Source: Patescibacteria group bacterium (GTDB lineage Bacteria > Patescibacteriota > Patescibacteriia > UBA2591 > UBA6264). From it: a DNA stretch of 54,652 bases. The translations under genes and the position numbers were made by a program. Shown here one piece after another: positions 8,768 to 16,748 of this stretch. Under the pieces are notes generated by a model. The model saw only the letters and a list, made by a program, of their open reading frames with translations, did not search any database and was not told the origin of the DNA. Each line of letters opens with the position of its first letter. Positions within the stretch are counted from its first letter, which is position 1. Location of the stretch: contig JAIPGN010000005.1 in assembly GCA_021735685.1 (NCBI GenBank), forward strand, positions 1 through 54,652, written 5' to 3'.

Positions 8768-9943
8768 ATGTTAATAACCAATCAACAAATCATTGAGGGG
8801 ATTAATCGTAAAAATAAAAAAAATCCCCTTTGGTATATTACTCGGGAACGAGAGCGGGGCCAAGGACTAGAAAGAGTCCTTGAAAATTACAAAATAATTA
8901 CATCCTCTCAGCCGCAAAGTACTTTTCAAATTATTAAATCTCTGAAAGTAAAACCAAATCAGAAAATTATAGTTTTCAAAAATACTCCCCAAATTCAAAG
9001 AATAGCGCACGAAAAAAATATTAAACTGCTGAACCCTCCGGTGAATTTAGTGGAAAAATACGAAAATAAAATTAGTCAATATCATTGGTTAAAAAAAATT
9101 ATTCCCGATTATCTCCCCTCTACTATTATTACTATTCCTCAAGAAAAAAAATATCTAGAATTAAAAAAAGAAATTGGCGAAAAATTTATCTGCCAATTTA
9201 ATCATGGTCACAGTGGAAAAGGAACTCAAATTATTTCCAATCAGAAAAATTGGGGAAAATTACAAAAAAAATTTCCCAAAAGGCCGGTGCGCCTCTCTCA
9301 ATTAATTGAAGGAGAAAGCTTCACTATCAACGTCTGTCTTTGGGGAGATTGCATCTTGTTGGGTAACCCCAGCTATCAAATTACTGGTTTACCAGAATGC
9401 ACCGACTTTCCTTTTGCTACTATTGGCAACGACTGGCATTATGCCAACCAAAATCTTTCTGCTTCAGATTACAAAAAAATAAAAGCAATTTGCCAAAAAA
9501 TAGGAAAATTCATGAACTCAGATGGATGGCAAGGTTTATTTGGACTAGATTTTGTCAGAAACAAAAAAAAAGATTGGAAGGTAATTGAAGTTAATGCTCG
9601 TCAAGCGGCCTCTGTTAATCTAGAAACAATTTTTCAACAAAAAAGCGGACCAGGCTTAAGTATCTTGACCGCCCATTTCGCTGCTTTACTTAAAATACCT
9701 TTAAGGCTCAACCAGAAACAAATTGAAAGATCAGTGCAAGAAATAAAAGAAGGGGCTCGCATTTTAATTAGAAAAAAGAAAAAACAAAATACCAAAAAAA
9801 TAAAAAAGCTTTGGCCAGAAAGTGAGATCAAGAAAATTAAAATTAACGAAATTATTGGCTCTTGGCCAACCGCCCGTGGCGGATTCATTAAAGTCCACAA
9901 CCAATGGAATTCAAAAGCAAAGGAACTGTTAAGGGAGATGTAG
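8768..9943 (+). CDS. ATP-grasp domain ligase
   Basis: ENK, GHSGKGT glycine loop, GLFGLDF..VIEVNAR (ExN metal motif). Confidence 0.8.
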   Translation: MLITNQQIIEGINRKNKKNPLWYITRERERGQGLERVLENYKIITSSQPQSTFQIIKSLKVKPNQKIIVFKNTPQIQRIAHEKNIKLLNPPVNLVEKYENKISQYHWLKKIIPDYLPSTIITIPQEKKYLELKKEIGEKFICQFNHGHSGKGTQIISNQKNWGKLQKKFPKRPVRLSQLIEGESFTINVCLWGDCILLGNPSYQITGLPECTDFPFATIGNDWHYANQNLSASDYKKIKAICQKIGKFMNSDGWQGLFGLDFVRNKKKDWKVIEVNARQAASVNLETIFQQKSGPGLSILTAHFAALLKIPLRLNQKQIERSVQEIKEGARILIRKKKKQNTKKIKKLWPESEIKKIKINEIIGSWPTARGGFIKVHNQWNSKAKELLREM

Positions 9944-10647
9944 ATAAAGAGAAAAGAAGACTTTCTCTTTCACCTTCAGCCCAAGCAGTAATTAATTCTT
10001 ATCTAAAAATGAAAATTGGCAACAAAATTATTGCTTGCCCTTATTTCATTAATCGGCAAGGCGCAAAAGCTGCCTTGCGTGTTTTTTTAGGAAAAGCCTC
10101 ATCTCAAGAAATTAAAGAAGAGATAGAAATGATCGCTCAACAAAAAGAAATTGATTTAAACCAAATGAGCGAAGAAGAAATCTATCAACTCTTGAAGTCC
10201 AAAAGACTGGGCATTGATTGTTCTGGCCTAGTGGTTCATATCTTAAAAGCGGAATATCAAGAGCGCAAAAATATCAACATTCTCCGCCGAATTTACATTA
10301 CCGCCCCTTGGAAGAATCCTTGGCGTTACTTTATTTCTCGTTTCCGTCCCATTGAAAACATTAGCGTCCGCGTCTTAGCTCATCCTTATAACAGTCGGAT
10401 AGTTAAAAATCCAGAAAAAATTCAAGCTGGAGACTTAATTATCTACCAAAGCCTTAAACATGTTCTTTTAATAGAAGAAATAAAATTAAATCAAGAAAAA
10501 ACTATTAAAGAAATCAAAATTATTCACGCTCAAAGAATGAGCCCCGAAGAAGAAGGAGCTCGAGTTAAAAGAATAACTTACTCTTTTTCTGAATTAAAGA
10601 AAAAAATAGAACAAGGCGAAATAATTCTTCGTCGTTTAAAATTCTAA
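9904..10647 (+). CDS. NlpC/P60-like cysteine peptidase, no signal peptide
   Basis: GIDCSGLV catalytic Cys motif, then AGDLI..KHVLL His. Start uncertain (overlaps the upstream gene by 40 nt). Confidence 0.7.
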   Translation: MEFKSKGTVKGDVDKEKRRLSLSPSAQAVINSYLKMKIGNKIIACPYFINRQGAKAALRVFLGKASSQEIKEEIEMIAQQKEIDLNQMSEEEIYQLLKSKRLGIDCSGLVVHILKAEYQERKNINILRRIYITAPWKNPWRYFISRFRPIENISVRVLAHPYNSRIVKNPEKIQAGDLIIYQSLKHVLLIEEIKLNQEKTIKEIKIIHAQRMSPEEEGARVKRITYSFSELKKKIEQGEIILRRLKF

Positions 10648-10649
10648 AT

Positions 10650-11777
10650 ATGGACTTCTTGTATCAAAATTTATTAACTACCATCCTTTTCTTTATTATC
10701 TTTTCTTCGTTGATTGCTTTTGTTTTAGCGCCCCTGATCATTCATCTACTTTACAAATTGAAGATTCAAAGGAAAATGGAACTAGACCCCTCTTTGCAGG
10801 CAAATCAAAAGAGGGTAAAAAAGGCAGGCACTCCTATCATGGGAGGATTGTTGATTATCATCACTATTTTAATCGTCACCCTGCTTTTTAATTTTGAACA
10901 AAAATTTACCTATGTTCCGATTGGCGTTATGGGTCTCTCCGCGCTCTTGGGAGGAATAGATGACTTACTTAATGTTTTTGGGCAAAAAAGGAAAATTCGT
11001 TCCCTAAAATTAACTCTAAAATTAATTCGCTGCCATCGCAATAAATTTTATCGCCTCTGGCTAATTGTTACTATTCCTTGGATTATTTTTCGCAATACTT
11101 TTTTAATACTCAGCTCGCATCCTACTCGCGGCGTTTTACCTCATGAGAAAATAATTCTTCAACTGATTACTGGCTTAATCACTGCCTGGTGGATAGTCTT
11201 TAAACTCGGCAATCAATGGCTTTATATCTGGGTCCCTTTTAATGGAGAAATTTATCTTGGCTATTGGATGATCCCAGTAGTGGTTTTTACAGTCATGTTT
11301 TTCGCCAATGCTGTTAACATCTCTGATGGCCTAGACGGCTTATCGGGCGGAGTACTTCTTTCTGCCTTTGGCGGTCTAGCAATTATTAGTTTTTTGCAAA
11401 ATAATGCTCATTTTGCCATTTTAAACGCCACAGCTATTGGCGCTTTAATCGCTTATATTTATTTTAATATCAAGCCAGCTCGTTTTCAAATGGGAGACAT
11501 TGGCTCCCTTAGTATGGGCGCTTTGTTTGCGGTAACTGCTTTAGCCCAAAACAGACTTTTAATTATTCCCTTTTTCGGCTTTATTTTTATCGTAGAAATT
11601 TTTTCCGTTATTCTTCAAATCATTTGGCGGCACTTGCTCGGCAAAAGACTCTTCAAGATGGCCCCCTTGCATCATCATTTAGAATGCTTGGGATGGAGTG
11701 AAGAGAAAATAGTAATGCGTTTTTGGATTATTAATTTATTCATGATGTTCTTTGGATTATGGATGGCCATGCCTTAG
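10650..11777 (+). CDS. mraY: Phospho-MurNAc-pentapeptide transferase MraY (with loop insertion)
   Basis: KAGTPIMGG, GIDD, NAVNISDGLDGL, QMGDIGS, KMAPLHHHLE. Confidence 0.9.
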   Translation: MDFLYQNLLTTILFFIIFSSLIAFVLAPLIIHLLYKLKIQRKMELDPSLQANQKRVKKAGTPIMGGLLIIITILIVTLLFNFEQKFTYVPIGVMGLSALLGGIDDLLNVFGQKRKIRSLKLTLKLIRCHRNKFYRLWLIVTIPWIIFRNTFLILSSHPTRGVLPHEKIILQLITGLITAWWIVFKLGNQWLYIWVPFNGEIYLGYWMIPVVVFTVMFFANAVNISDGLDGLSGGVLLSAFGGLAIISFLQNNAHFAILNATAIGALIAYIYFNIKPARFQMGDIGSLSMGALFAVTALAQNRLLIIPFFGFIFIVEIFSVILQIIWRHLLGKRLFKMAPLHHHLECLGWSEEKIVMRFWIINLFMMFFGLWMAMP

Positions 11778-12859
11778 ACAATCAATCCTTTAATTTAAAA
11801 AACAAAAAAGTCCTCATTTACACCGGGGACACTTTTGGTTTAGAAGCTCGAAAAAAATTACCCAGCCGACCCAAAACGGCCGATGGAATTTTGCGTTACG
11901 CCCAATACAATATTGTCGGCCTAGTTGACTCTCATTGCTCAAAAAAATTCACCAACCAAATTCTCCCCGACCTCAAAAATAAAATTCCTATTTTTAAAAC
12001 CATTAACGAAGCACAGAAAAAAACATCTGCCCAAGTTTTAATCATTGGGGTAGCCCCTCAAAAGGGAGAAGTTCCTATGAGTTTTACTCGGGAAATAGTT
12101 AAAGCCTTAGAGAATAATCTCGATTTAGTGAGTGGCTTACATCAGCCGCTTTCTTCTTTTTCCTCTATACTAAAAGCCGCTCAAAAAAACTCTCGAAAAA
12201 TATGGGAAGTACGCTACCCTCCACAAAAATTACCCCTAGCTAGCTGCCAAACTTATAAAATCAAAAAACCAATTATACTTACCATTGGCACTGATGCTGC
12301 CTTGGGTAAATTAACCACCACCTACGAAATGTTCCAAAAGGCACGCGCAAAATATCAAGCAGCCTTAATCCCTACAGGACAAACTAGCGTTATTATTGAA
12401 GGCTGGGGAATCTGCGTTGATAAATGTGCTGGTGATTTTATGGCCGGAGCAGTAGAAAAAATGATTCTCCAAAAAGAAAAACAAGAAAATCCAGACTTAT
12501 ATTTTGTAGAAGGACAAGGTTCCCTTGCTCATCCAGCTTTCTCTACCACGGCTATTGCTTTAATGCATGGTGCCTGCCCCACTCACTTAGTCTTGGTTCA
12601 CCGGCCGGCCCGGAAAAGAATGACTCATTGCTCACTCTTGCCAACACCTAGTATCAAAAAATCTATAGAAATAGCAGAAAAAATAATTCTTCCTTCTTAT
12701 TTGAAAAGTAAAGTAGTAGCTATTAGTTTAAATACTCAAGGGATGAACGATAACGAAGCCAAAGAAGAAATTAAAAAAATAAAAAAAGAAACTAATTTGC
12801 CCACTACTGACCAAATTCGTTTTCCTCAAAATTGGACCGAACTATTCTTGAAAAATTAA
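11759..12859 (+). CDS. DUF1611 family protein (Rossmann-like plus P-loop-like domains)
   Basis: KTADGILRY, IIGVAP..G, LTIGTDAALGKLTT, TGQT, VEGQGSL.HPA..ALMHGA.P pattern. Confidence 0.8.
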   Translation: MDGHALDNQSFNLKNKKVLIYTGDTFGLEARKKLPSRPKTADGILRYAQYNIVGLVDSHCSKKFTNQILPDLKNKIPIFKTINEAQKKTSAQVLIIGVAPQKGEVPMSFTREIVKALENNLDLVSGLHQPLSSFSSILKAAQKNSRKIWEVRYPPQKLPLASCQTYKIKKPIILTIGTDAALGKLTTTYEMFQKARAKYQAALIPTGQTSVIIEGWGICVDKCAGDFMAGAVEKMILQKEKQENPDLYFVEGQGSLAHPAFSTTAIALMHGACPTHLVLVHRPARKRMTHCSLLPTPSIKKSIEIAEKIILPSYLKSKVVAISLNTQGMNDNEAKEEIKKIKKETNLPTTDQIRFPQNWTELFLKN

Positions 12860-12935: not shown

Positions 12936-14345
12936 ATGAAACATATTCATTTTATCGGCATTTGCGGAGTAGGTATGGGATCTTTAGCAATTATGTTCAA
13001 AAAAATGGGATGGAAAGTTACAGGTTCAGATAAAGGATTTTTTTCTCCAATGAGCAATCATTTGCGCCAAGCAAAAATAGATTTTTATCCCGGTTGGCAT
13101 CCAGAAAAAATGAAAAAACCAGATCTAATAGTAATGGGAAACTTTGCTTCTTTACATAATCCAGAATATCTTTACGCTCAAGAAAAAAAAATTACTATTA
13201 AATCTTTCCCCGAATTGGTGCAAGAATATATCATTAAAGAAAACTCCATTGTGGTAACCGGAACCTATGCCAAAACCACCATCACCTCTTTTTTGGCCCA
13301 CCTTTTAAAAATAGCCGAGAAAGACCCCAGTTGGTTTGTGGGTGGTTTAGCTCTTAATCTTGCTAACGGAGCTCACTGTGGTAAAGGTGAATGGAGTATA
13401 GTAGAAGGAGATGAGTACAGCACGGCTCGTTGGGATCTTCGCTCCAAATTTTTCTGGTATCAACCCACTCACCTTTTAATTACTTCTGTAATTTGGGATC
13501 ATTTTGACATTTTTCCTCAGAAAGAAAAATATTTAGACGCTTTTCGAAAATTAACCAAAGCCCTTCCTTCTCATGGTCAAATTTTAGCTAATCAAAAAAC
13601 CAGACCCGATAACCATATTGAAGAAATAATTAAAAAAACTTCATCGCCAGTCAAACGTTATGGAAAATTAAACCCTAAAAACAATAATGATTATTCTTAT
13701 CAAATAAATTCTTTTTCTCCCCAAAAAACTATTTTTACCGTCTATAAAAAAAATCAAGAATGGAGCTCATTTTCCACTAATTTATTTGGGGAACACATGA
13801 TCGAAAATTTAACTGCTGGAATTGCTCTCGGAGACTTAATTGGTATCGAGAAAGAAAAAATAAAAAAAGCAGTATCCTCTTTTCAGGGAGTAAAACGTCG
13901 CCTTGAGCTCCGAGGAAATAAAAAAAATATTTTAATTTTTGACGATTTGGCTCATTCTCCCAGTAAGGCTCAAGGCTCTTTAAAAGCCTTACGGCTATAT
14001 TTCCCTCAGGCCAGAATTATCGCCATCTACGAACCCAATGTCGGTAACCGGACTTTAAGTAGTAAAAAATTTTATCGAGACTCTTTCAATCAAGCTGATT
14101 GGGTTATCATTCCCCGATTATCAAAAACCAAAACTAACGCTCAGCAAGAAAAACGTTTGGACGGCGAAGAACTGGCCAAAACTATTAAAGAAAAAAATAA
14201 AAAAACTCTAAGAGTTTCTTATTTCAATAAAGACGATCAATTGGTTGAATCTGTTAAGAAAAAAGTAAAGCCTCAAGATGTAGTCATCTTCTTGGGCTCA
14301 CACAGTTTCAGAGGAATGATTGAAGAGCTGATAACTGAAATTTAA
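12936..14345 (+). CDS. Mur ligase of the Mpl/MurC type
   Basis: HIHFIGICGVGMGSLA, VTGTYAKTTITS, EGDEY, DHFD, GVKRRLE, DDLAHSP. The GICG start and the DD-x-AH motif resemble Mpl (DDFAHHP). Confidence 0.8.
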   Translation: MKHIHFIGICGVGMGSLAIMFKKMGWKVTGSDKGFFSPMSNHLRQAKIDFYPGWHPEKMKKPDLIVMGNFASLHNPEYLYAQEKKITIKSFPELVQEYIIKENSIVVTGTYAKTTITSFLAHLLKIAEKDPSWFVGGLALNLANGAHCGKGEWSIVEGDEYSTARWDLRSKFFWYQPTHLLITSVIWDHFDIFPQKEKYLDAFRKLTKALPSHGQILANQKTRPDNHIEEIIKKTSSPVKRYGKLNPKNNNDYSYQINSFSPQKTIFTVYKKNQEWSSFSTNLFGEHMIENLTAGIALGDLIGIEKEKIKKAVSSFQGVKRRLELRGNKKNILIFDDLAHSPSKAQGSLKALRLYFPQARIIAIYEPNVGNRTLSSKKFYRDSFNQADWVIIPRLSKTKTNAQQEKRLDGEELAKTIKEKNKKTLRVSYFNKDDQLVESVKKKVKPQDVVIFLGSHSFRGMIEELITEI

Positions 14346-14346
14346 G

Positions 14347-14511
14347 TTATTTTCCTTCGTCAATTACCTCTAAGTCAACACGTTCACCATTAATGCTGGT
14401 CACTTCTAGGGTAACACCACAAGTGTTACACTCGATAATGCTCCCCTCTTCTATTTCTGAAGGATCGTCAACATTAATATTGTTTTTACATTCTGGGCAA
14501 AATAATTTCAT
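14347..14511 (-). CDS. LysW-like zinc-ribbon small protein (amino-group-carrier fold), C-terminus DEGK
   Basis: Manual translation MKLFCPECKNNINVDDPSEIEEGSIIECNTCGVTLEVTSINGERVDLEVIDEGK (54 aa): CPEC..CxxCG.TLEV, acidic. Missed by the ORF track. Confidence 0.8.
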   Translation of the reverse strand: MKLFCPECKNNINVDDPSEIEEGSIIECNTCGVTLEVTSINGERVDLEVIDEGK

Positions 14512-14551
14512 ATTAATATTTTAGAAAAAAAGAATTTAATGTCAAGCTTTC

Positions 14552-15430
14552 ATGAAGTCGACTCCGCAAAAAAAATATCCCAATCTGGCTCAAATCCTAA
14601 AAGTTCCTGAAGTTTGGATCAAAGAAGAATACCTTAATAAGTCCGGTTCTCATAAAATCAGATTAATTAATTTTCTTTTTCAAAAATATGTTCGTCAAGG
14701 AAAAAAAGATTTTACCATCTCTTCTTCCGGGAATGCCGCAATTGCCGCAGCCTATTATCTCCAGAAAATCAAAAACCCTCAACTGAATTTAAGTATTTTT
14801 ATTTCGCCTCAAATTGAAAAATCTAAATGGCAACGTTTACTTAAGGTTTGCAATTCTTCTCCGCAAATAAAAATTAAAAAAGCTCGAAGACCAAAACAAG
14901 AAGCCTTTATTTTTGCCCAAAAAAATAAAGCTATTTTTTTACGAGGATCAACCGAGCCACAAGCTGAAAAAGCTTATAAGGGCCTAGGTCAAGAAATGCA
15001 AAAAATTCCCAACCTACAAGCCATTTTTGTTCCTACTTCTTCGGGTCTAACCGCTTTAGGGGTTTCTTCTGCTCTTTCTCAAACAAAGAACAAAACAGAA
15101 ATTCATATTGTGCAAACTGCCAAAATTCATCCTTTTTCTGCAAACTTTGACTCTGAATTTAATCCTCAAGAGACCTCTTTGGCTTCGGCTATTGTGGATC
15201 AAGTCGGAAAAAGAAAAAAAGAAATTATAGAAATGGTCAAAAGAACAAAAGGTTGGGGCTGGACAATTAACGACCAAGAATTAAAAAATGCCCGAAAAAT
15301 TGTTGAATTAAATACAAACCTTGGTAAAATAAACTATGACAGTCTTTTATCAATCGCTGGACTAATCAAAGCGCAAAAAAATGGATGGAATTTTGAAAGA
15401 CCAGTTTGTTGCCTTTTTACCGGAATTTAG
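14552..15430 (+). CDS. PLP-dependent fold-type II enzyme (threonine/cysteine synthase-like)
   Basis: KEEYLNKSGSHK (Schiff-base Lys), SSSGNAA, VPTSSG phosphate loop, C-terminal TG. Confidence 0.8.
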   Translation: MKSTPQKKYPNLAQILKVPEVWIKEEYLNKSGSHKIRLINFLFQKYVRQGKKDFTISSSGNAAIAAAYYLQKIKNPQLNLSIFISPQIEKSKWQRLLKVCNSSPQIKIKKARRPKQEAFIFAQKNKAIFLRGSTEPQAEKAYKGLGQEMQKIPNLQAIFVPTSSGLTALGVSSALSQTKNKTEIHIVQTAKIHPFSANFDSEFNPQETSLASAIVDQVGKRKKEIIEMVKRTKGWGWTINDQELKNARKIVELNTNLGKINYDSLLSIAGLIKAQKNGWNFERPVCCLFTGI

Positions 15431-15452: not shown

Positions 15453-16748
15453 ATGAATCTAGAAATTAAGGGAGACAAAAAATTAAAAGGAACGGTAGTC
15501 ACCAATACCTCTAAAAATGCCGCTATGGGCTTAATGGCTGCTAGCCTTTTAAACAAGGGAACAACTCTTTTGCGACAAGTACCAAAAATTGAAGAGGTTA
15601 ACAGAATGATTGAAGTTTTGAGTAGTTTGGGAGTAAAGATACAATGGGTTCAAGACAATAATTTAAAAATTATCCCTCCTTCAAAAATATCTTTAGAAAA
15701 ACTTAATAAAAAATCAGCTATTAAAACTAGAAGTATTATCATGCTTTTGGGTCCGCTGATCCATGAATTCAAAAAATTCAAATTACCCCAACCGGGCGGT
15801 TGCAAGCTTGGTCGCCGCACTGTACGTCCTCACTTGTTTGCCTTGGAAAATCTAGGAGTTAAAATCGAAACCCGCTCCAAATATTATGAAGTTGCTCGCC
15901 AAAAACTAAAAGCTGCGGAAATAGTTCTTTACGAATCTGGAGACACCACCACGGAAAACGTTATTATGGCCGCCGCCAAAATTCCAGGCAAAACTACAAT
16001 TAAATTAGCTTCAGCCAACTATCAGGTTCAAGATCTTTGTCATTTTCTTTCTCTTTTGGGAGTTAAAATTAAGGGCATTGGCACCACCACTCTTACTATC
16101 AATGGTCAGCCAGAAATTCACAAAAATATAGAATATCATTTAAGCGAAGATCCAATAGAAAGTATGTTTTTTTTAGCAGTGAGCGCCACCACCAACTCTC
16201 CTTTATTGATCAAAAGATGTCCGATTGATTTCCTTGAGCTAGAGCTTCTAAAACTAGAGAAAATGAATTTTAAATTCAAAATAATTAAGAGATATAAGGC
16301 TAAAAATAAATTTACTAACCTAGTAGATATTAAAACTTATCCTTCTCAATTACAAGCCTTAGAGGAAAAAATATACGCCCGACCCTTTCCTGGTCTAAAT
16401 ATTGATAATTTGCCCTTTTTTGTACCCATCGCCACTCAAGCTAAAGGACAAACTCTTATTCACGACTGGGTTTACGAACATCGAGCCATTTATTATACTG
16501 AATTATCAAAACTAGGAGCAAAAATAATTTTAGCCGACCCTTACCGAGTTTACATTGATGGCCCCAGCAAACTTAAAGCTGCGGAAATTATTTGCCCTTC
16601 TGCTCTCCGGCCAGCAACAATTATACTTATCGCCATGCTCAATGCTAAGGGAACCTCAATTTTACGCAACATCTATTCTATTAATCGTGGTTACGAAAAT
16701 CTGAGCGAACGCTTGAATAATTTAGGGGCAGAAATTAAAATAATATAA
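15453..16748 (+). CDS. murA: UDP-N-acetylglucosamine 1-carboxyvinyltransferase
   Basis: SKNAA, PGGCKLGRR (catalytic Cys), TENVIMAA, PFPG, RGYE. Confidence 0.92.
   Translation: MNLEIKGDKKLKGTVVTNTSKNAAMGLMAASLLNKGTTLLRQVPKIEEVNRMIEVLSSLGVKIQWVQDNNLKIIPPSKISLEKLNKKSAIKTRSIIMLLGPLIHEFKKFKLPQPGGCKLGRRTVRPHLFALENLGVKIETRSKYYEVARQKLKAAEIVLYESGDTTTENVIMAAAKIPGKTTIKLASANYQVQDLCHFLSLLGVKIKGIGTTTLTINGQPEIHKNIEYHLSEDPIESMFFLAVSATTNSPLLIKRCPIDFLELELLKLEKMNFKFKIIKRYKAKNKFTNLVDIKTYPSQLQALEEKIYARPFPGLNIDNLPFFVPIATQAKGQTLIHDWVYEHRAIYYTELSKLGAKIILADPYRVYIDGPSKLKAAEIICPSALRPATIILIAMLNAKGTSILRNIYSINRGYENLSERLNNLGAEIKII

What the first reader, a model, noticed from the sequence alone, without database searches (positions are those of the whole stretch)
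14552..15430. PLP fold-II enzyme coupled to murA: possible maker of an unusual wall amino acid
Seen: compact threonine/cysteine-synthase-like enzyme 22 nt upstream of murA, with no amino-acid biosynthesis genes nearby. Knowledge: fold-II enzymes do beta/gamma replacement, elimination or racemisation; Fusobacterium uses one to make lanthionine as a DAP substitute in peptidoglycan. Inference: it supplies a diamino or D-amino acid for the stem peptide.
Basis: inference. Interest (0 to 1): 0.58.

Follow-up and report, generated by a model that had tools for sequence, protein, structure and literature searches.

The report
PLP enzyme paired with LysW-like carrier
This vitamin-B6 enzyme is not a threonine synthase: across Patescibacteria it sits beside a tiny carrier protein ending in lysine, inside a cell-wall gene module found only in genomes lacking MurC, MurD and glutamate racemase, so it probably helps make the wall's D-glutamate by an undescribed route.

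Summary
The ORF at 14552-15430 encodes a 292-aa fold-II PLP enzyme, 22 nt upstream of murA.

The murA link is local to the window's own clade. The conserved partner is a 54-aa LysW-like zinc-ribbon gene at 14347-14511 on the minus strand:
- It lies divergently upstream in 50 of 50 loci with enough flank.
- It always ends in lysine.
- It comes with a MurC/Mpl-like ligase, MraY, an ATP-grasp ligase, an NlpC/P60-like hydrolase, and either a Bpt/ATE-like or a DUF1611 transferase.

The enzyme derives from threonine synthase, but thrB and hom were not found, so it is not ThrC.

In 121 genomes of the same class, the 8 carriers of the family compare with the other 113 as follows:

| Gene | Carriers | Others |
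|---|---|---|
| MurD | 0/8 | 106/113 |
| MurI | 0/8 | 79/113 |
| canonical MurC | 0/8 | 105/113 |
| alanine racemase (control) | 5/8 | 68/113 |

A phylum sample gives the same picture: 15 of 16 carriers lack MurD.

Best reading (about 0.4): a carrier-dependent PLP enzyme, most likely an epimerase of glutamate tethered to the carrier's terminal lysine. It would supply the stem peptide's D-Glu. The chemistry is inferred, not shown.

An earlier scan note on this window had already flagged the carrier.

The parts
14552..15430 (+). The finding: a 292-aa ThrC-derived fold-II PLP enzyme. Family-invariant residues include K35 (PLP lysine), S57-S58-S59-G60, P161/S163/S164/G165 in the PTSSG loop, Q188, D216, R221, K222, K92, K115 and R131; N61, T162 and T189 are nearly invariant.
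   Evidence: Pfam PALP 104.6 bits. Alignment A1 of 24 members. AlphaFold pLDDT 93.6. Foldseek best hit is Aquifex threonine synthase 2zsj, TM 0.84, 20% identity.
14347..14511 (-). A 54-aa LysW-like zinc-ribbon carrier protein with four Cys and an acidic tail ending VIDEGK. It is transcribed divergently from the PLP enzyme.
   Evidence: Pfam Zn_ribbon_LysW 41.9 bits against a cut-off of 27. It matches LysW chains 3wwl, 5k2m and 3vpb. It is present in 84 of 87 loci, adjacent and divergent in 83 of those 84, and the terminal K is invariant.
14518..14545 (-). A near-consensus sigma-70-type promoter (TTGACA, 16 nt, TAAAAT; 11 of 12 positions) just upstream of the LysW-like gene.
   Evidence: Pattern scan. 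This is a consensus match only.
12936..14345 (+). MurC/Mpl-like ligase. It is the only MurC-type ligase in the genome and scores below the cut-offs for both murC and mpl.
   Evidence: TIGR01082 283 bits against 335; mpl 246 bits against 389. All genomes carrying the family have only such sub-cut-off ligases, beside the PLP gene.
11759..12859 (+). DUF1611 (DgcN-like) protein. It sits in the slot between MraY and the ligase that most other loci fill with a Bpt/ATE-like GNAT-fold transferase.
   Evidence: Pfam DUF1611 194 and 72 bits. NF041892 DgcN 214 bits against 480. Slot occupancy: 44 Bpt/ATE-like plus 5 DUF1611 in 50 loci. ATE_C and arginyltransferase hits.
10650..11777 (+). MraY, the genome's only true MraY.
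   Evidence: TIGR00445 188.5 bits against 192. The other two GT4 genes are WecA-like, scoring 65-68 bits on the mraY model.
9904..10647 (+). Divergent NlpC/P60-like cysteine hydrolase with an invariant GxDCSG cysteine and invariant histidines. It overlaps the end of the ATP-grasp gene.
   Evidence: Alignment A3. Pfam NLPC_P60 is weak but hits 15 of 24 members, best E 1.9e-5. The domain is fused to the ATP-grasp in L001 and to the MurC-like ligase in L098 (hhalign 99.9%).
8768..9943 (+). ATP-grasp ligase of unknown specificity, at the head of the cluster.
   Evidence: Pfam ATP-grasp_3 27.8 bits. AlphaFold pLDDT 92.9. Foldseek hits are biotin carboxylase, PurK and L-amino-acid ligase types at TM about 0.6.
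15453..16748 (+). MurA, 22 nt downstream of the PLP gene. This neighbour is specific to the window's clade.
   Evidence: NF006873 340 bits. MurA is adjacent in 9 of 87 loci.

Best explanation
The gene encodes a threonine-synthase-derived fold-II PLP enzyme that has left threonine synthesis. It works with the Lys-terminated LysW-like carrier protein encoded divergently next to it.

The two genes belong to a conserved module: ATP-grasp ligase, NlpC/P60-like hydrolase, MraY, a Bpt/ATE-like or DUF1611 transferase, a MurC/Mpl-like ligase, the carrier and the PLP enzyme. This module stands in for canonical MurC, MurD and glutamate racemase.

The proposed mechanism is inferred step by step; none of it is shown:
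1. The ATP-grasp ligase joins the gamma-carboxyl of L-glutamate to the epsilon-amine of the carrier's terminal lysine. This leaves a free alpha-amino acid head group.
2. The PLP enzyme binds that head group and inverts C-alpha from L to D.
3. The Bpt/ATE-like or DUF1611 enzyme acylates the glutamate alpha-amine with L-alanine.
4. The Mpl-like ligase joins UDP-MurNAc to this carrier-borne mimic of L-Ala-gamma-D-Glu-Lys.
5. The P60 hydrolase cuts the gamma-D-Glu-Lys bond. This frees UDP-MurNAc-L-Ala-D-Glu for the canonical MurE and recycles the carrier.

My odds:
- The module replaces MurC/MurD/MurI: about 0.75.
- The PLP enzyme acts on or with the carrier: about 0.65.
- It is specifically a tethered-glutamate epimerase: about 0.35-0.4.
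For: Shown by tool results:

1. Pairing with the carrier.
- The LysW-like gene is present in 84 of 87 loci, and adjacent and divergent in 83 of those 84.
- In the 50 loci with at least 8 kb of upstream flank: carrier 50, MurC-like 49, MraY 49, slot enzyme 49, ATP-grasp or P60 at least 32.
- The same module occurs in other classes. There the carrier tails read ILEEK, LVEEEK, YLMIEK and YLYVQK, so only the terminal lysine is invariant.

2. Gene-loss pattern in 121 genomes of the same class, carriers against non-carriers:
- MurD 0/8 against 106/113.
- MurI over its cut-off 0/8 against 79/113.
- MurC over its cut-off 0/8 against 105/113. Carriers have only a 263-297-bit ligase beside the PLP gene.
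- Negative control, alanine racemase: 5/8 against 68/113.

3. Phylum sample of 301 genomes.
- 15 of 16 strong carriers lack MurD, against 47 of 285 others.
- None of the 15 family carriers searched there has MurI over its cut-off.
- Five Magasanikbacteria genomes agree, one a complete chromosome.

4. No other D-Glu source was found. The fold-IV D-amino-acid aminotransferase family was not found in 5 carriers.

5. The steps downstream are canonical: MurE 380 bits, MurF 266 bits. In some lineages MurE sits inside the module.

6. Not ThrC. thrB and hom were not found, and ThrC models score at most 53 bits.

7. Fusions link the P60 domain to the ATP-grasp and to the MurC-like ligase.

8. The complex prediction of enzyme with carrier gave weak support only.
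- ipSAE was 0.40 against a best control of 0.20.
- That mark was reached by 58 of 80 solved complexes and by 2 of 110 mismatched pairs. At 0.60 or under, only 7 of those 80 solved complexes reached it, as did both mismatches that passed.
- The runs agree in at least 78% of contacts, and the partner's pLDDT is 80.

From established knowledge:
- NlpC/P60 enzymes typically cut gamma-D-Glu-diamino-acid bonds.
- Bpt/ATE enzymes acylate N-terminal Asp or Glu from aminoacyl-tRNA.
- DgcN N-acetylates D-Glu.
- Mpl ligates a preformed L-Ala-gamma-D-Glu-diamino-acid peptide.
- LysW carries substrates on its terminal residue.
- Fold-II racemases use the PLP lysine and the serine before the GN of the SSGN loop. 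Here that serine is the invariant S59. The title of PDB entry 4h27 records protein engineering of the functions of human serine racemase and serine dehydratase.
Against: - No biochemical datum exists. The reaction type cannot be read from the sequence.
- Foldseek places the model equally far (16-21% identity) from threonine synthase, Ser/Thr dehydratases, Asp/Ser racemases and SbnA.
- The serine at S59 is also present in cysteine synthases.
- The family descends from ThrC, a gamma-elimination and beta-addition enzyme, not from a racemase.
- No PLP-dependent fold-II glutamate racemase is known to me.
- The complex prediction gave only weak support, with no interface reported.
- No enzyme-carrier fusion was found among seven longer members.
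- The ATP-grasp resembles biotin carboxylase and PurK types, not LysX or RimK specifically.
- One carrier genome, G145 (85% complete, 150 contigs), also has a MurD hit at 8.5e-69.
- The carrier genomes fall in about ten GTDB families that are related to each other, so the contrasts overstate independence.
- 47 of 285 non-carriers also lack MurD, so loss of MurD does not require this module.
Confidence: 0.38

Rival explanations
1. A carrier-dependent beta- or gamma-replacement enzyme. The PLP enzyme forms an aminoacrylate or vinylglycine intermediate from Ser, phosphoserine or phosphohomoserine. It then adds it to a nucleophile on the carrier, for example the epsilon-amine of the terminal lysine, much as SbnA does with an amine. 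This would build a non-standard wall residue, which is the first reader's 'unusual amino acid' reading.
For: - The family derives from ThrC. Distant members keep the ThrC-type N-terminal GIWKY motif, and the top sequence and fold hits are ThrC.
- SbnA structures are among the fold hits.
- The invariant terminal lysine offers an amine nucleophile.
- Conserved basic residues in the mobile domain (K92, K115, R131) could bind a phosphate leaving group.
Against: - MurE and MurF are canonical, so a normal UDP-MurNAc-L-Ala-D-Glu-like acceptor is expected.
- The gene-loss pattern points at D-Glu supply and positions 1-2, not at the diamino acid.
- No kinase or dehydrogenase that would make a phospho-substrate or process an SbnA-type adduct is conserved in the module.
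- thrB was not found.
- SbnA and CysK models score at noise level, 29 bits against 350.
Confidence: 0.2
2. A racemase for a free amino acid (glutamate, or a broad range). It would replace MurI directly, with the LysW-like protein acting only as an accessory or regulatory subunit, or serving another enzyme of the module.
For: - Carriers lack MurI and the fold-IV D-amino-acid aminotransferase family.
- G145 has the module and also a MurD hit, but no MurI. That fits a plain D-Glu supplier.
- Fold-II Asp and Ser racemases are among the fold hits, and S59 is invariant.
Against: - The pairing with the carrier gene is the tightest in the module, tighter than with any ligase.
- MurD and canonical MurC are lost together with MurI, which a simple racemase swap does not explain.
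- The weak complex signal favours contact between enzyme and carrier.
Confidence: 0.17
3. A salvage module. The P60 hydrolase and the Mpl-like ligase would reuse L-Ala-D-Glu-containing peptides taken from a host's wall, which makes MurC, MurD and MurI dispensable. The PLP enzyme and the carrier would then do something unrelated or peripheral, such as modifying or detoxifying an imported amino acid.
For: - The ligase is Mpl-like, and the P60 and DUF1611 genes are of kinds seen in murein-peptide recycling.
- By general knowledge, Patescibacteria are episymbionts with very small biosynthetic capacity.
- thrB and hom were not found in six carrier genomes, and the semialdehyde dehydrogenase family not in this genome.
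Against: - The PLP enzyme and the carrier are the most constant members of the module. The module is all-or-none: five genomes without MurD and without the PLP family also lack the ATP-grasp.
- An ATP-grasp ligase and an aminoacyl-transferase-like enzyme are not needed for simple salvage.
Confidence: 0.08
4. An ordinary threonine synthase or a catabolic serine/threonine dehydratase that merely lies next to wall genes.
For: - Sources annotate relatives as threonine synthase or threonine dehydratase.
- The best PDB sequence hits are serine dehydratases and ThrC.
Against: - thrB and homoserine dehydrogenase were not found in 6 carrier genomes.
- All ThrC and dehydratase models score far below their cut-offs.
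- The window's protein lacks the ThrC N-terminal segment: the match starts at profile position 62.
- Synteny with wall genes and the carrier is conserved across classes.
Confidence: 0.04

Closest known systems
Short-type threonine synthase (ThrC; e.g. Aquifex 2zsj, M. tuberculosis 2d1f, B. subtilis 6cgq)
   Same: - Fold-type II PLP fold: TM 0.84 to 2zsj.
- Best profile hits against solved structures.
- Shared motifs: the PLP lysine, the S-x-G-N loop, an A-x-A-I segment and the C-terminal C-L-x-T-G.
- Distant family members keep a ThrC-like N-terminus.
   Different: - Only 18-20% identity. The middle (mobile) domain does not align.
- NCBIfam ThrC models score 20-53 bits against cut-offs of 167-421.
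- No thrB or hom was found to make the substrate.
- It is always paired with a carrier-protein gene.
Fold-II PLP racemases (serine racemase 3l6b/1v71; aspartate racemase 5ybw)
   Same: - Same fold, TM 0.80-0.82.
- The serine preceding the GN of the SSGN loop is invariant here (S59). In these racemases it is the second catalytic base (my own knowledge).
   Different: - 16-18% identity.
- No known member acts on glutamate or on a protein-tethered amino acid.
- The same serine also occurs in enzymes that are not racemases.
LysW/ArgW amino-group carrier protein systems (Thermus, Sulfolobus, Thermococcus, Streptomyces)
   Same: - A zinc-ribbon carrier of about 54 aa with an acidic tail (Pfam PF21344, 41.9 bits; PDB hits 3wwl, 5k2m, 3vpb).
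- It is encoded together with an ATP-grasp ligase and a hydrolase that could load and unload it.
   Different: - The tail ends in lysine, not the EDWGE glutamate. The attachment chemistry must therefore be reversed: an amine instead of a gamma-carboxyl.
- No LysY-type reductase was found in the window's genome (semialdehyde dehydrogenase family). The LysZ kinase and LysJ aminotransferase families were not searched across the genome, and nothing like them lies in the module.
- The PLP partner is fold II, not the fold-I LysJ.
- The ATP-grasp is not LysX-like by fold.
- The context is wall-precursor synthesis.
MurD2/MurL alternative D-Glu route of Xanthomonas (PMC8788868)
   Same: A precedent for bacteria without glutamate racemase that bring D-Glu into the stem peptide by inverting glutamate after it has been ligated.
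   Different: That route keeps a MurD homologue and uses a cofactor-independent epimerase on the UDP-linked dipeptide. Here no MurD homologue was found, and the candidates are a PLP enzyme and a carrier protein.
SbnA (staphyloferrin B precursor synthesis) and the CysM-CysO pair
   Same: - Both are fold-II enzymes that add an unusual nucleophile to a PLP-bound aminoacrylate: an amine for SbnA, and the C-terminus of a small carrier protein for CysM-CysO (my own knowledge).
- SbnA is among the fold hits.
   Different: - The SbnA model scores 29 bits against 350.
- CysO is a beta-grasp protein with a Gly-Gly thiocarboxylate, not a zinc ribbon ending in lysine.

Membership tests
Fold-type II PLP enzymes (Pfam PF00291 PALP) | Profile match over the curated cut-off, covering both domains | tested here: met
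   104.6 bits against 35; residues 3-271 match profile positions 7-275 of 295.
Fold-type II PLP enzymes (Pfam PF00291 PALP) | Schiff-base lysine, carboxylate-binding S-x-G-N loop and phosphate-binding glycine-rich loop, all conserved | tested here: met
   K35 in GSHK, S57-S58-S59-G60 and P161/S163/S164/G165 are invariant in 24 members; N61 and T162 are nearly invariant. K35 aligns with the PLP lysine region of 2zsj, 2rkb and 1pwe.
Threonine synthase (ThrC) | Score over the curated cut-off of a ThrC equivalog model | tested here: not met
   Best is NF006205 at 53 bits against 358; TIGR00260 scores 19.8 against 167.
Threonine synthase (ThrC) | A genome that supplies O-phosphohomoserine (homoserine dehydrogenase and homoserine kinase) | tested here: not met
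   TIGR00191 and PF00742 were not found in the window's genome or in five other carriers. The semialdehyde dehydrogenase family was not found in the window's genome.
Threonine synthase (ThrC) | ThrC N-terminal segment present | tested here: not met
   The match starts at profile position 62 of NF006205. Only distant, longer family members keep a GIWKY-type N-terminus.
Fold-II amino-acid racemases (serine/aspartate racemase) | Second catalytic base: a serine immediately before the GN of the asparagine loop | tested here: inconclusive
   S59 is invariant, but the same residue occurs in enzymes that are not racemases. Racemase structures are no closer than dehydratases or ThrC.
Fold-II amino-acid racemases (serine/aspartate racemase) | Racemase activity | not testable with these tools
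   This needs an enzyme assay.
SbnA / cysteine synthase type beta-replacement enzymes | Score over the family cut-off | tested here: not met
   TIGR03945 scores 29.3 bits against 349.95. No CysK or CysM model is listed.
LysW amino-group carrier proteins (the partner gene) | Zinc-ribbon globular domain with four cysteines; Pfam PF21344 over its cut-off | tested here: met
   41.9 bits against 27. C5, C8, C28 and C31 are invariant.
LysW amino-group carrier proteins (the partner gene) | C-terminal EDWGE tail, with the terminal glutamate as the attachment site | tested here: not met
   All 84 copies end in lysine; tails include DEGK, EEGK, EEEK, IEK and VQK.
LysW amino-group carrier proteins (the partner gene) | Companion enzymes LysZ, LysY and LysJ | tested here: inconclusive
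   The semialdehyde dehydrogenase family (LysY/ArgC) was not found in the window's genome. The kinase and aminotransferase families were not searched genome-wide; nothing like them lies in the module.

The most novel reading that the evidence does not exclude
In at least ten families of Patescibacteria, the first two residues of the peptidoglycan stem peptide are not made by MurC, MurD and MurI. They are assembled on a ribosomally made carrier protein whose terminal lysine mimics stem position 3. On this reading, glutamate is tethered by an ATP-grasp ligase and inverted to D by this PLP enzyme. It is then N-alanylated by a tRNA-dependent Bpt/ATE-like (or DUF1611) enzyme and joined to UDP-MurNAc by an Mpl-like ligase. 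A P60 hydrolase finally cuts it free. This would be the first carrier-protein-templated step in murein precursor synthesis, and the first PLP-dependent epimerase acting on a protein-tethered amino acid.
Probability: 0.3. Interest if true: 0.9.

Novelty: new variant of a known kind. Interest (0 to 1): 0.78.

Why it matters
The cytoplasmic Mur pathway is treated as near-universal in wall-bearing bacteria, and it is a classic antibiotic target. Here a sizeable group of Patescibacteria keeps MurA, MurB, MurE, MurF and MraY, yet no canonical MurC, MurD, MurI or D-amino-acid aminotransferase was found. A fixed seven-gene module sits in their place.

If the module does what its parts suggest, three things follow:
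- It answers where D-glutamate comes from in these genomes.
- It extends the LysW carrier principle from amino-acid biosynthesis to wall synthesis, with reversed attachment chemistry.
- It adds a new reaction setting to fold-II PLP enzymes.

The question is directly testable with recombinant proteins from uncultured organisms.

Tried and rejected
- **Standard ThrC or dehydratase:** rejected.
- **Lanthionine/CysK analogy:** no model support.
- **Enzyme-carrier fusion (Rosetta stone):** seven longer family members were read. Their extensions are spurious or ThrC-like N-termini, not zinc ribbons.
- **ATP-grasp as a LysX/RimK relative:**
  - The single-sequence PDB search found nothing useful.
  - The profile search hit PurK-type chains at E about 1e-5.
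  - The fold search gave generic biotin carboxylase, PurK and L-amino-acid ligase hits at TM about 0.6.
- **P60 domain against solved structures:** only the GxDCSG motif aligns to LytE, at E about 0.8.
- **A natural experiment with a partial module:** five genomes without MurD and without the PLP family have no ATP-grasp either, so the module is all-or-none.
- **G145 as a clean 'MurD present, MurI absent' case:** it carries the whole module on a 4.6-kb contig, so it says little.
- **Fold-III racemases as the general D-Glu source:**
  - They are present in only 6 of 16 carriers.
  - They show no association with the family.
  - The Orr-like gene was seen only in the window's genome.
- **ATP-grasp as a Ddl substitute:** Ddl is variably present among carriers.
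- **Literature:** searches on LysW with peptidoglycan or Patescibacteria, on glutamate racemase with CPR and MurD, on DgcN/DUF1611, and on carrier protein with threonine synthase found no description of this pair. The DgcN search was swamped by unrelated acronyms.
- **ESM Atlas:** gave only unnamed PALP clusters from Magasanikbacteria.
Full report
**1. The observation**

The ORF at 14552-15430 (+) encodes 292 aa.
- It matches Pfam PALP at 104.6 bits against a cut-off of 35.
- MurA follows after 22 nt, at 15453-16748 (NF006873, 340 bits).
- It is the only PALP gene in the genome, which has 611 kb in 7 contigs and is 94.9% complete; the window is contig 6.
- It has 530 homologues in the 90%-identity collection and 487 clusters at 50% identity. 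Where a source names the organism, all are Patescibacteria, mostly Magasanikbacteria.
- The AlphaFold model is confident, at pLDDT 93.6.

The gene is therefore real and conserved.

**2. What kind of PLP enzyme it is**

All curated family models score far below their cut-offs:

| Model | Score (bits) | Cut-off (bits) |
|---|---|---|
| archaeal-type ThrC | 53 | 358 |
| dehydratases | up to 41 | 310-500 |
| SbnA | 29 | 350 |

- A profile of 24 members finds ThrC chains first among solved structures. Only the N- and C-terminal thirds align; the mobile middle domain does not.
- Foldseek places the model equally far from ThrC (TM 0.84), serine dehydratase, aspartate and serine racemases, TdcB and SbnA, all at 16-21% identity.
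- Distant, longer members keep a ThrC-type N-terminus.
- Invariant residues are K35 (Schiff-base lysine), S57-S58-S59-G60, P161/S163/S164/G165, Q188, D216, R221, K222, K92, K115 and R131; N61, T162 and T189 are nearly invariant.

This is a separate, ThrC-derived branch of fold type II. Its reaction cannot be read from motifs.

**3. Not threonine synthesis**

Homoserine kinase and homoserine dehydrogenase were not found in the window's genome or in five other genomes that carry the family. The controls matched in all 14 reference genomes. The semialdehyde dehydrogenase family was also not found in the window's genome.

**4. The conserved neighbourhood**

Between the MurC-like gene and the PLP gene, on the minus strand at 14347-14511, lies an uncalled 54-aa ORF.
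- It matches Pfam Zn_ribbon_LysW at 41.9 bits against a cut-off of 27, and it matches solved LysW chains.
- A near-consensus promoter precedes it.

I examined 87 loci: the window, 6 loci from exact look-ups and 80 from GTDB species representatives.
- This gene is present in 84 of them.
- In 83 of the 84 it lies directly upstream of the PLP gene on the other strand.
- Every copy ends in lysine. The tail is DEGK or EEGK in the window's class and reads IEK, IQK, VQK, VEK or EEK in other classes. Only the terminal K is invariant.

Counts in the 50 loci with at least 8 kb of upstream flank:

| Gene | Loci |
|---|---|
| LysW-like carrier | 50 |
| MurC-like ligase | 49 |
| MraY | 49 |
| slot between MraY and the ligase filled | 49 (44 Bpt/ATE-like, 5 DUF1611/DgcN-like as in this window) |
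| ATP-grasp or P60 | at least 32 |
| MurA adjacent | 4 |

Further points on the module:
- The Bpt/ATE-like protein has a GNAT fold. It hits ATE_C, Acetyltransf_6 and the NCBIfam arginyltransferase models, all below cut-off.
- The P60-like domain has an invariant GxDCSG cysteine and invariant histidines.
- That domain is fused to the ATP-grasp in Magasanikbacteria and to the MurC-like ligase in another lineage (hhalign 99.9%).
- In some lineages MurE lies in the same cluster.
- In the window's genome each module gene is single-copy, and the cluster's MraY is the only true MraY.

**5. What the carrier genomes lack**

The window's genome has three Mur ligases: the cluster's MurC/Mpl-like ligase (283 bits on murC against a cut-off of 335), MurE (380 bits) and MurF (266 bits). 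No MurD, no Asp/Glu racemase family member and no Ddl were found.

In an even sample of 121 genomes of the same class, 8 carry the PLP family:

| Gene | Carriers | Non-carriers |
|---|---|---|
| MurD (E up to 1e-35) | 0/8 | 106/113 |
| MurI over its cut-off | 0/8 | 79/113 |
| MurC over its cut-off | 0/8 | 105/113 |
| alanine racemase (negative control) | 5/8 | 68/113 |

- The carriers have only a 263-297-bit MurC-type ligase, lying beside the PLP gene.
- In a phylum sample of 301 genomes, 16 carry the family strongly (at least 169 bits), in families of at least two classes. Of these, 15 lack MurD, against 47 of 285 others.
- None of the 15 family carriers searched has MurI over its cut-off.
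- The background tally includes one unpublished genome, G271. It is a non-carrier with MurD, and no claim depends on it.
- Five Magasanikbacteria genomes, one a complete chromosome, agree.
- The fold-IV D-amino-acid aminotransferase family was not found in five carriers.
- Five genomes that lack both MurD and the PLP family also lack the ATP-grasp, so the module is all-or-none.

Caveats:
- The carriers fall in about ten related GTDB families, so these are not independent trials.
- The genomes are samples, and most are metagenome-assembled.
- One carrier, G145, also has a MurD hit.

**6. Interpretation**

The module replaces the enzymes that make and attach the first two stem-peptide residues, and the enzyme that makes D-Glu. 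The canonical MurE and MurF downstream argue that the product is a normal UDP-MurNAc-L-Ala-D-Glu-like acceptor.

Each module family has a known chemistry that touches glutamate or the gamma-D-Glu-diamino-acid bond:
- P60 enzymes cut that bond.
- Bpt/ATE enzymes acylate N-terminal Glu or Asp from aminoacyl-tRNA.
- DgcN N-acylates D-Glu.
- Mpl ligates a preformed L-Ala-gamma-D-Glu-diamino-acid peptide.
- LysW carries substrates on its last residue.

A carrier ending in lysine can hold glutamate by its gamma-carboxyl, which leaves the head group free for a PLP enzyme. From this I infer the five-step scheme given under the best explanation, with the PLP enzyme as the L-to-D inverting step. The perfectly conserved carboxylate-binding loop and the invariant S59 are compatible with this but do not prove it.

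The enzyme-carrier complex prediction gave weak support only:
- ipSAE 0.40 against a best control of 0.20.
- That mark was reached by 58 of 80 solved complexes and 2 of 110 mismatches. At 0.60 or under, only 7 of the 80 solved complexes reached it, as did both mismatches that passed.
- The runs agree in at least 78% of contacts, and the partner's pLDDT is 80.

**7. Rivals**

- A carrier-dependent beta- or gamma-replacement remains possible.
- A plain free-glutamate racemase is possible too.
- So is a salvage module in which the PLP enzyme is peripheral.
- An ordinary ThrC or dehydratase is very unlikely.

**8. Comparison with what is known**

The nearest relatives by sequence and fold are short threonine synthases. 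The nearest by logic are the LysW carrier systems and the MurD2/MurL route of Xanthomonas (PMC8788868). None shares the defining combination found here: a lysine-terminated carrier, a fold-II PLP enzyme and a wall-precursor cluster.

I found no paper describing it in the held library.

Earlier notes of this scan on the same window had already flagged the carrier, the cluster and a possible recycling signature. I re-derived the carrier and cluster observations independently. I added the genome-wide loss pattern, the control, the fusions and the cross-class conservation.

**9. Verdict**

- This is a new variant of known kinds, and it is computationally well supported at the module level.
- The chemistry is unproven. 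Interest is high.

Noticed in passing
whole genome G000; window 8768-9943: No D-Ala-D-Ala ligase (PF07478) was found in the window's 94.9%-complete genome, although MurF and an alanine racemase are present. Among other carrier genomes Ddl is variable, so the source of the MurF substrate here is open.
   Followed up: partly
L009:1090-2178 (G000:C3, around 229689-230351): A second fold-III racemase resembles ornithine racemase Orr (NF040742, 267 bits against 480). No second fold-III racemase hit appeared in the 15 other carrier genomes searched.
   Followed up: partly
L101:8412-11361 (G000:C3): A 545-aa asparagine-synthase-like gene overlaps the start of MurE by 8 nt. It may be a stem-peptide amidotransferase.
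   Followed up: no
L098:10386-12473: In one lineage (G210) the MurC/Mpl-like ligase is fused at its C-terminus to the P60-like hydrolase. In Magasanikbacteria the same hydrolase is fused to the ATP-grasp (L001:2246-4282).
   Followed up: yes
L097:2222-3406 and L096:3386-4546: MurE copies of only 386-394 aa lie at the head of the module. They score well over the murE cut-off but lack a Pfam match to the N-terminal Mur ligase domain.
   Followed up: partly
L001:8870-13840, L003, L005 (downstream of the PLP gene): In Magasanikbacteria the PLP gene is followed by a conserved set: a convergent methyltransferase, an ELP3-like radical SAM protein, SHMT and TsaE. In the window's genome the same genes lie together on another contig (C4:5480-13024).
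   Followed up: partly
L003:7169-7807: In some Magasanikbacteria, a 212-aa HAD/NT5C-like phosphatase gene is inserted between the MurC-like ligase and the carrier gene.
   Followed up: no
L094 (G145:C8:1-4654): One carrier genome, 85% complete in 150 contigs, has the module and also a MurD hit at 8.5e-69. This could be a transitional state, contamination or a paralogue.
   Followed up: partly
class sample: Several genomes without the PLP family also lack MurD, and some of them canonical MurC as well: G028, G008, G048, G068 and G044. G028 and G044 keep MurI. They may use yet another route or may have lost the wall.
   Followed up: partly
L101:4228-5322 and L102:2951-3889 (G000:C3): Two WecA-like GT4 phosphotransferases occur besides MraY. 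One lies next to a PseC/LegC-like aminotransferase, which suggests a separate lipid-linked glycan.
   Followed up: no
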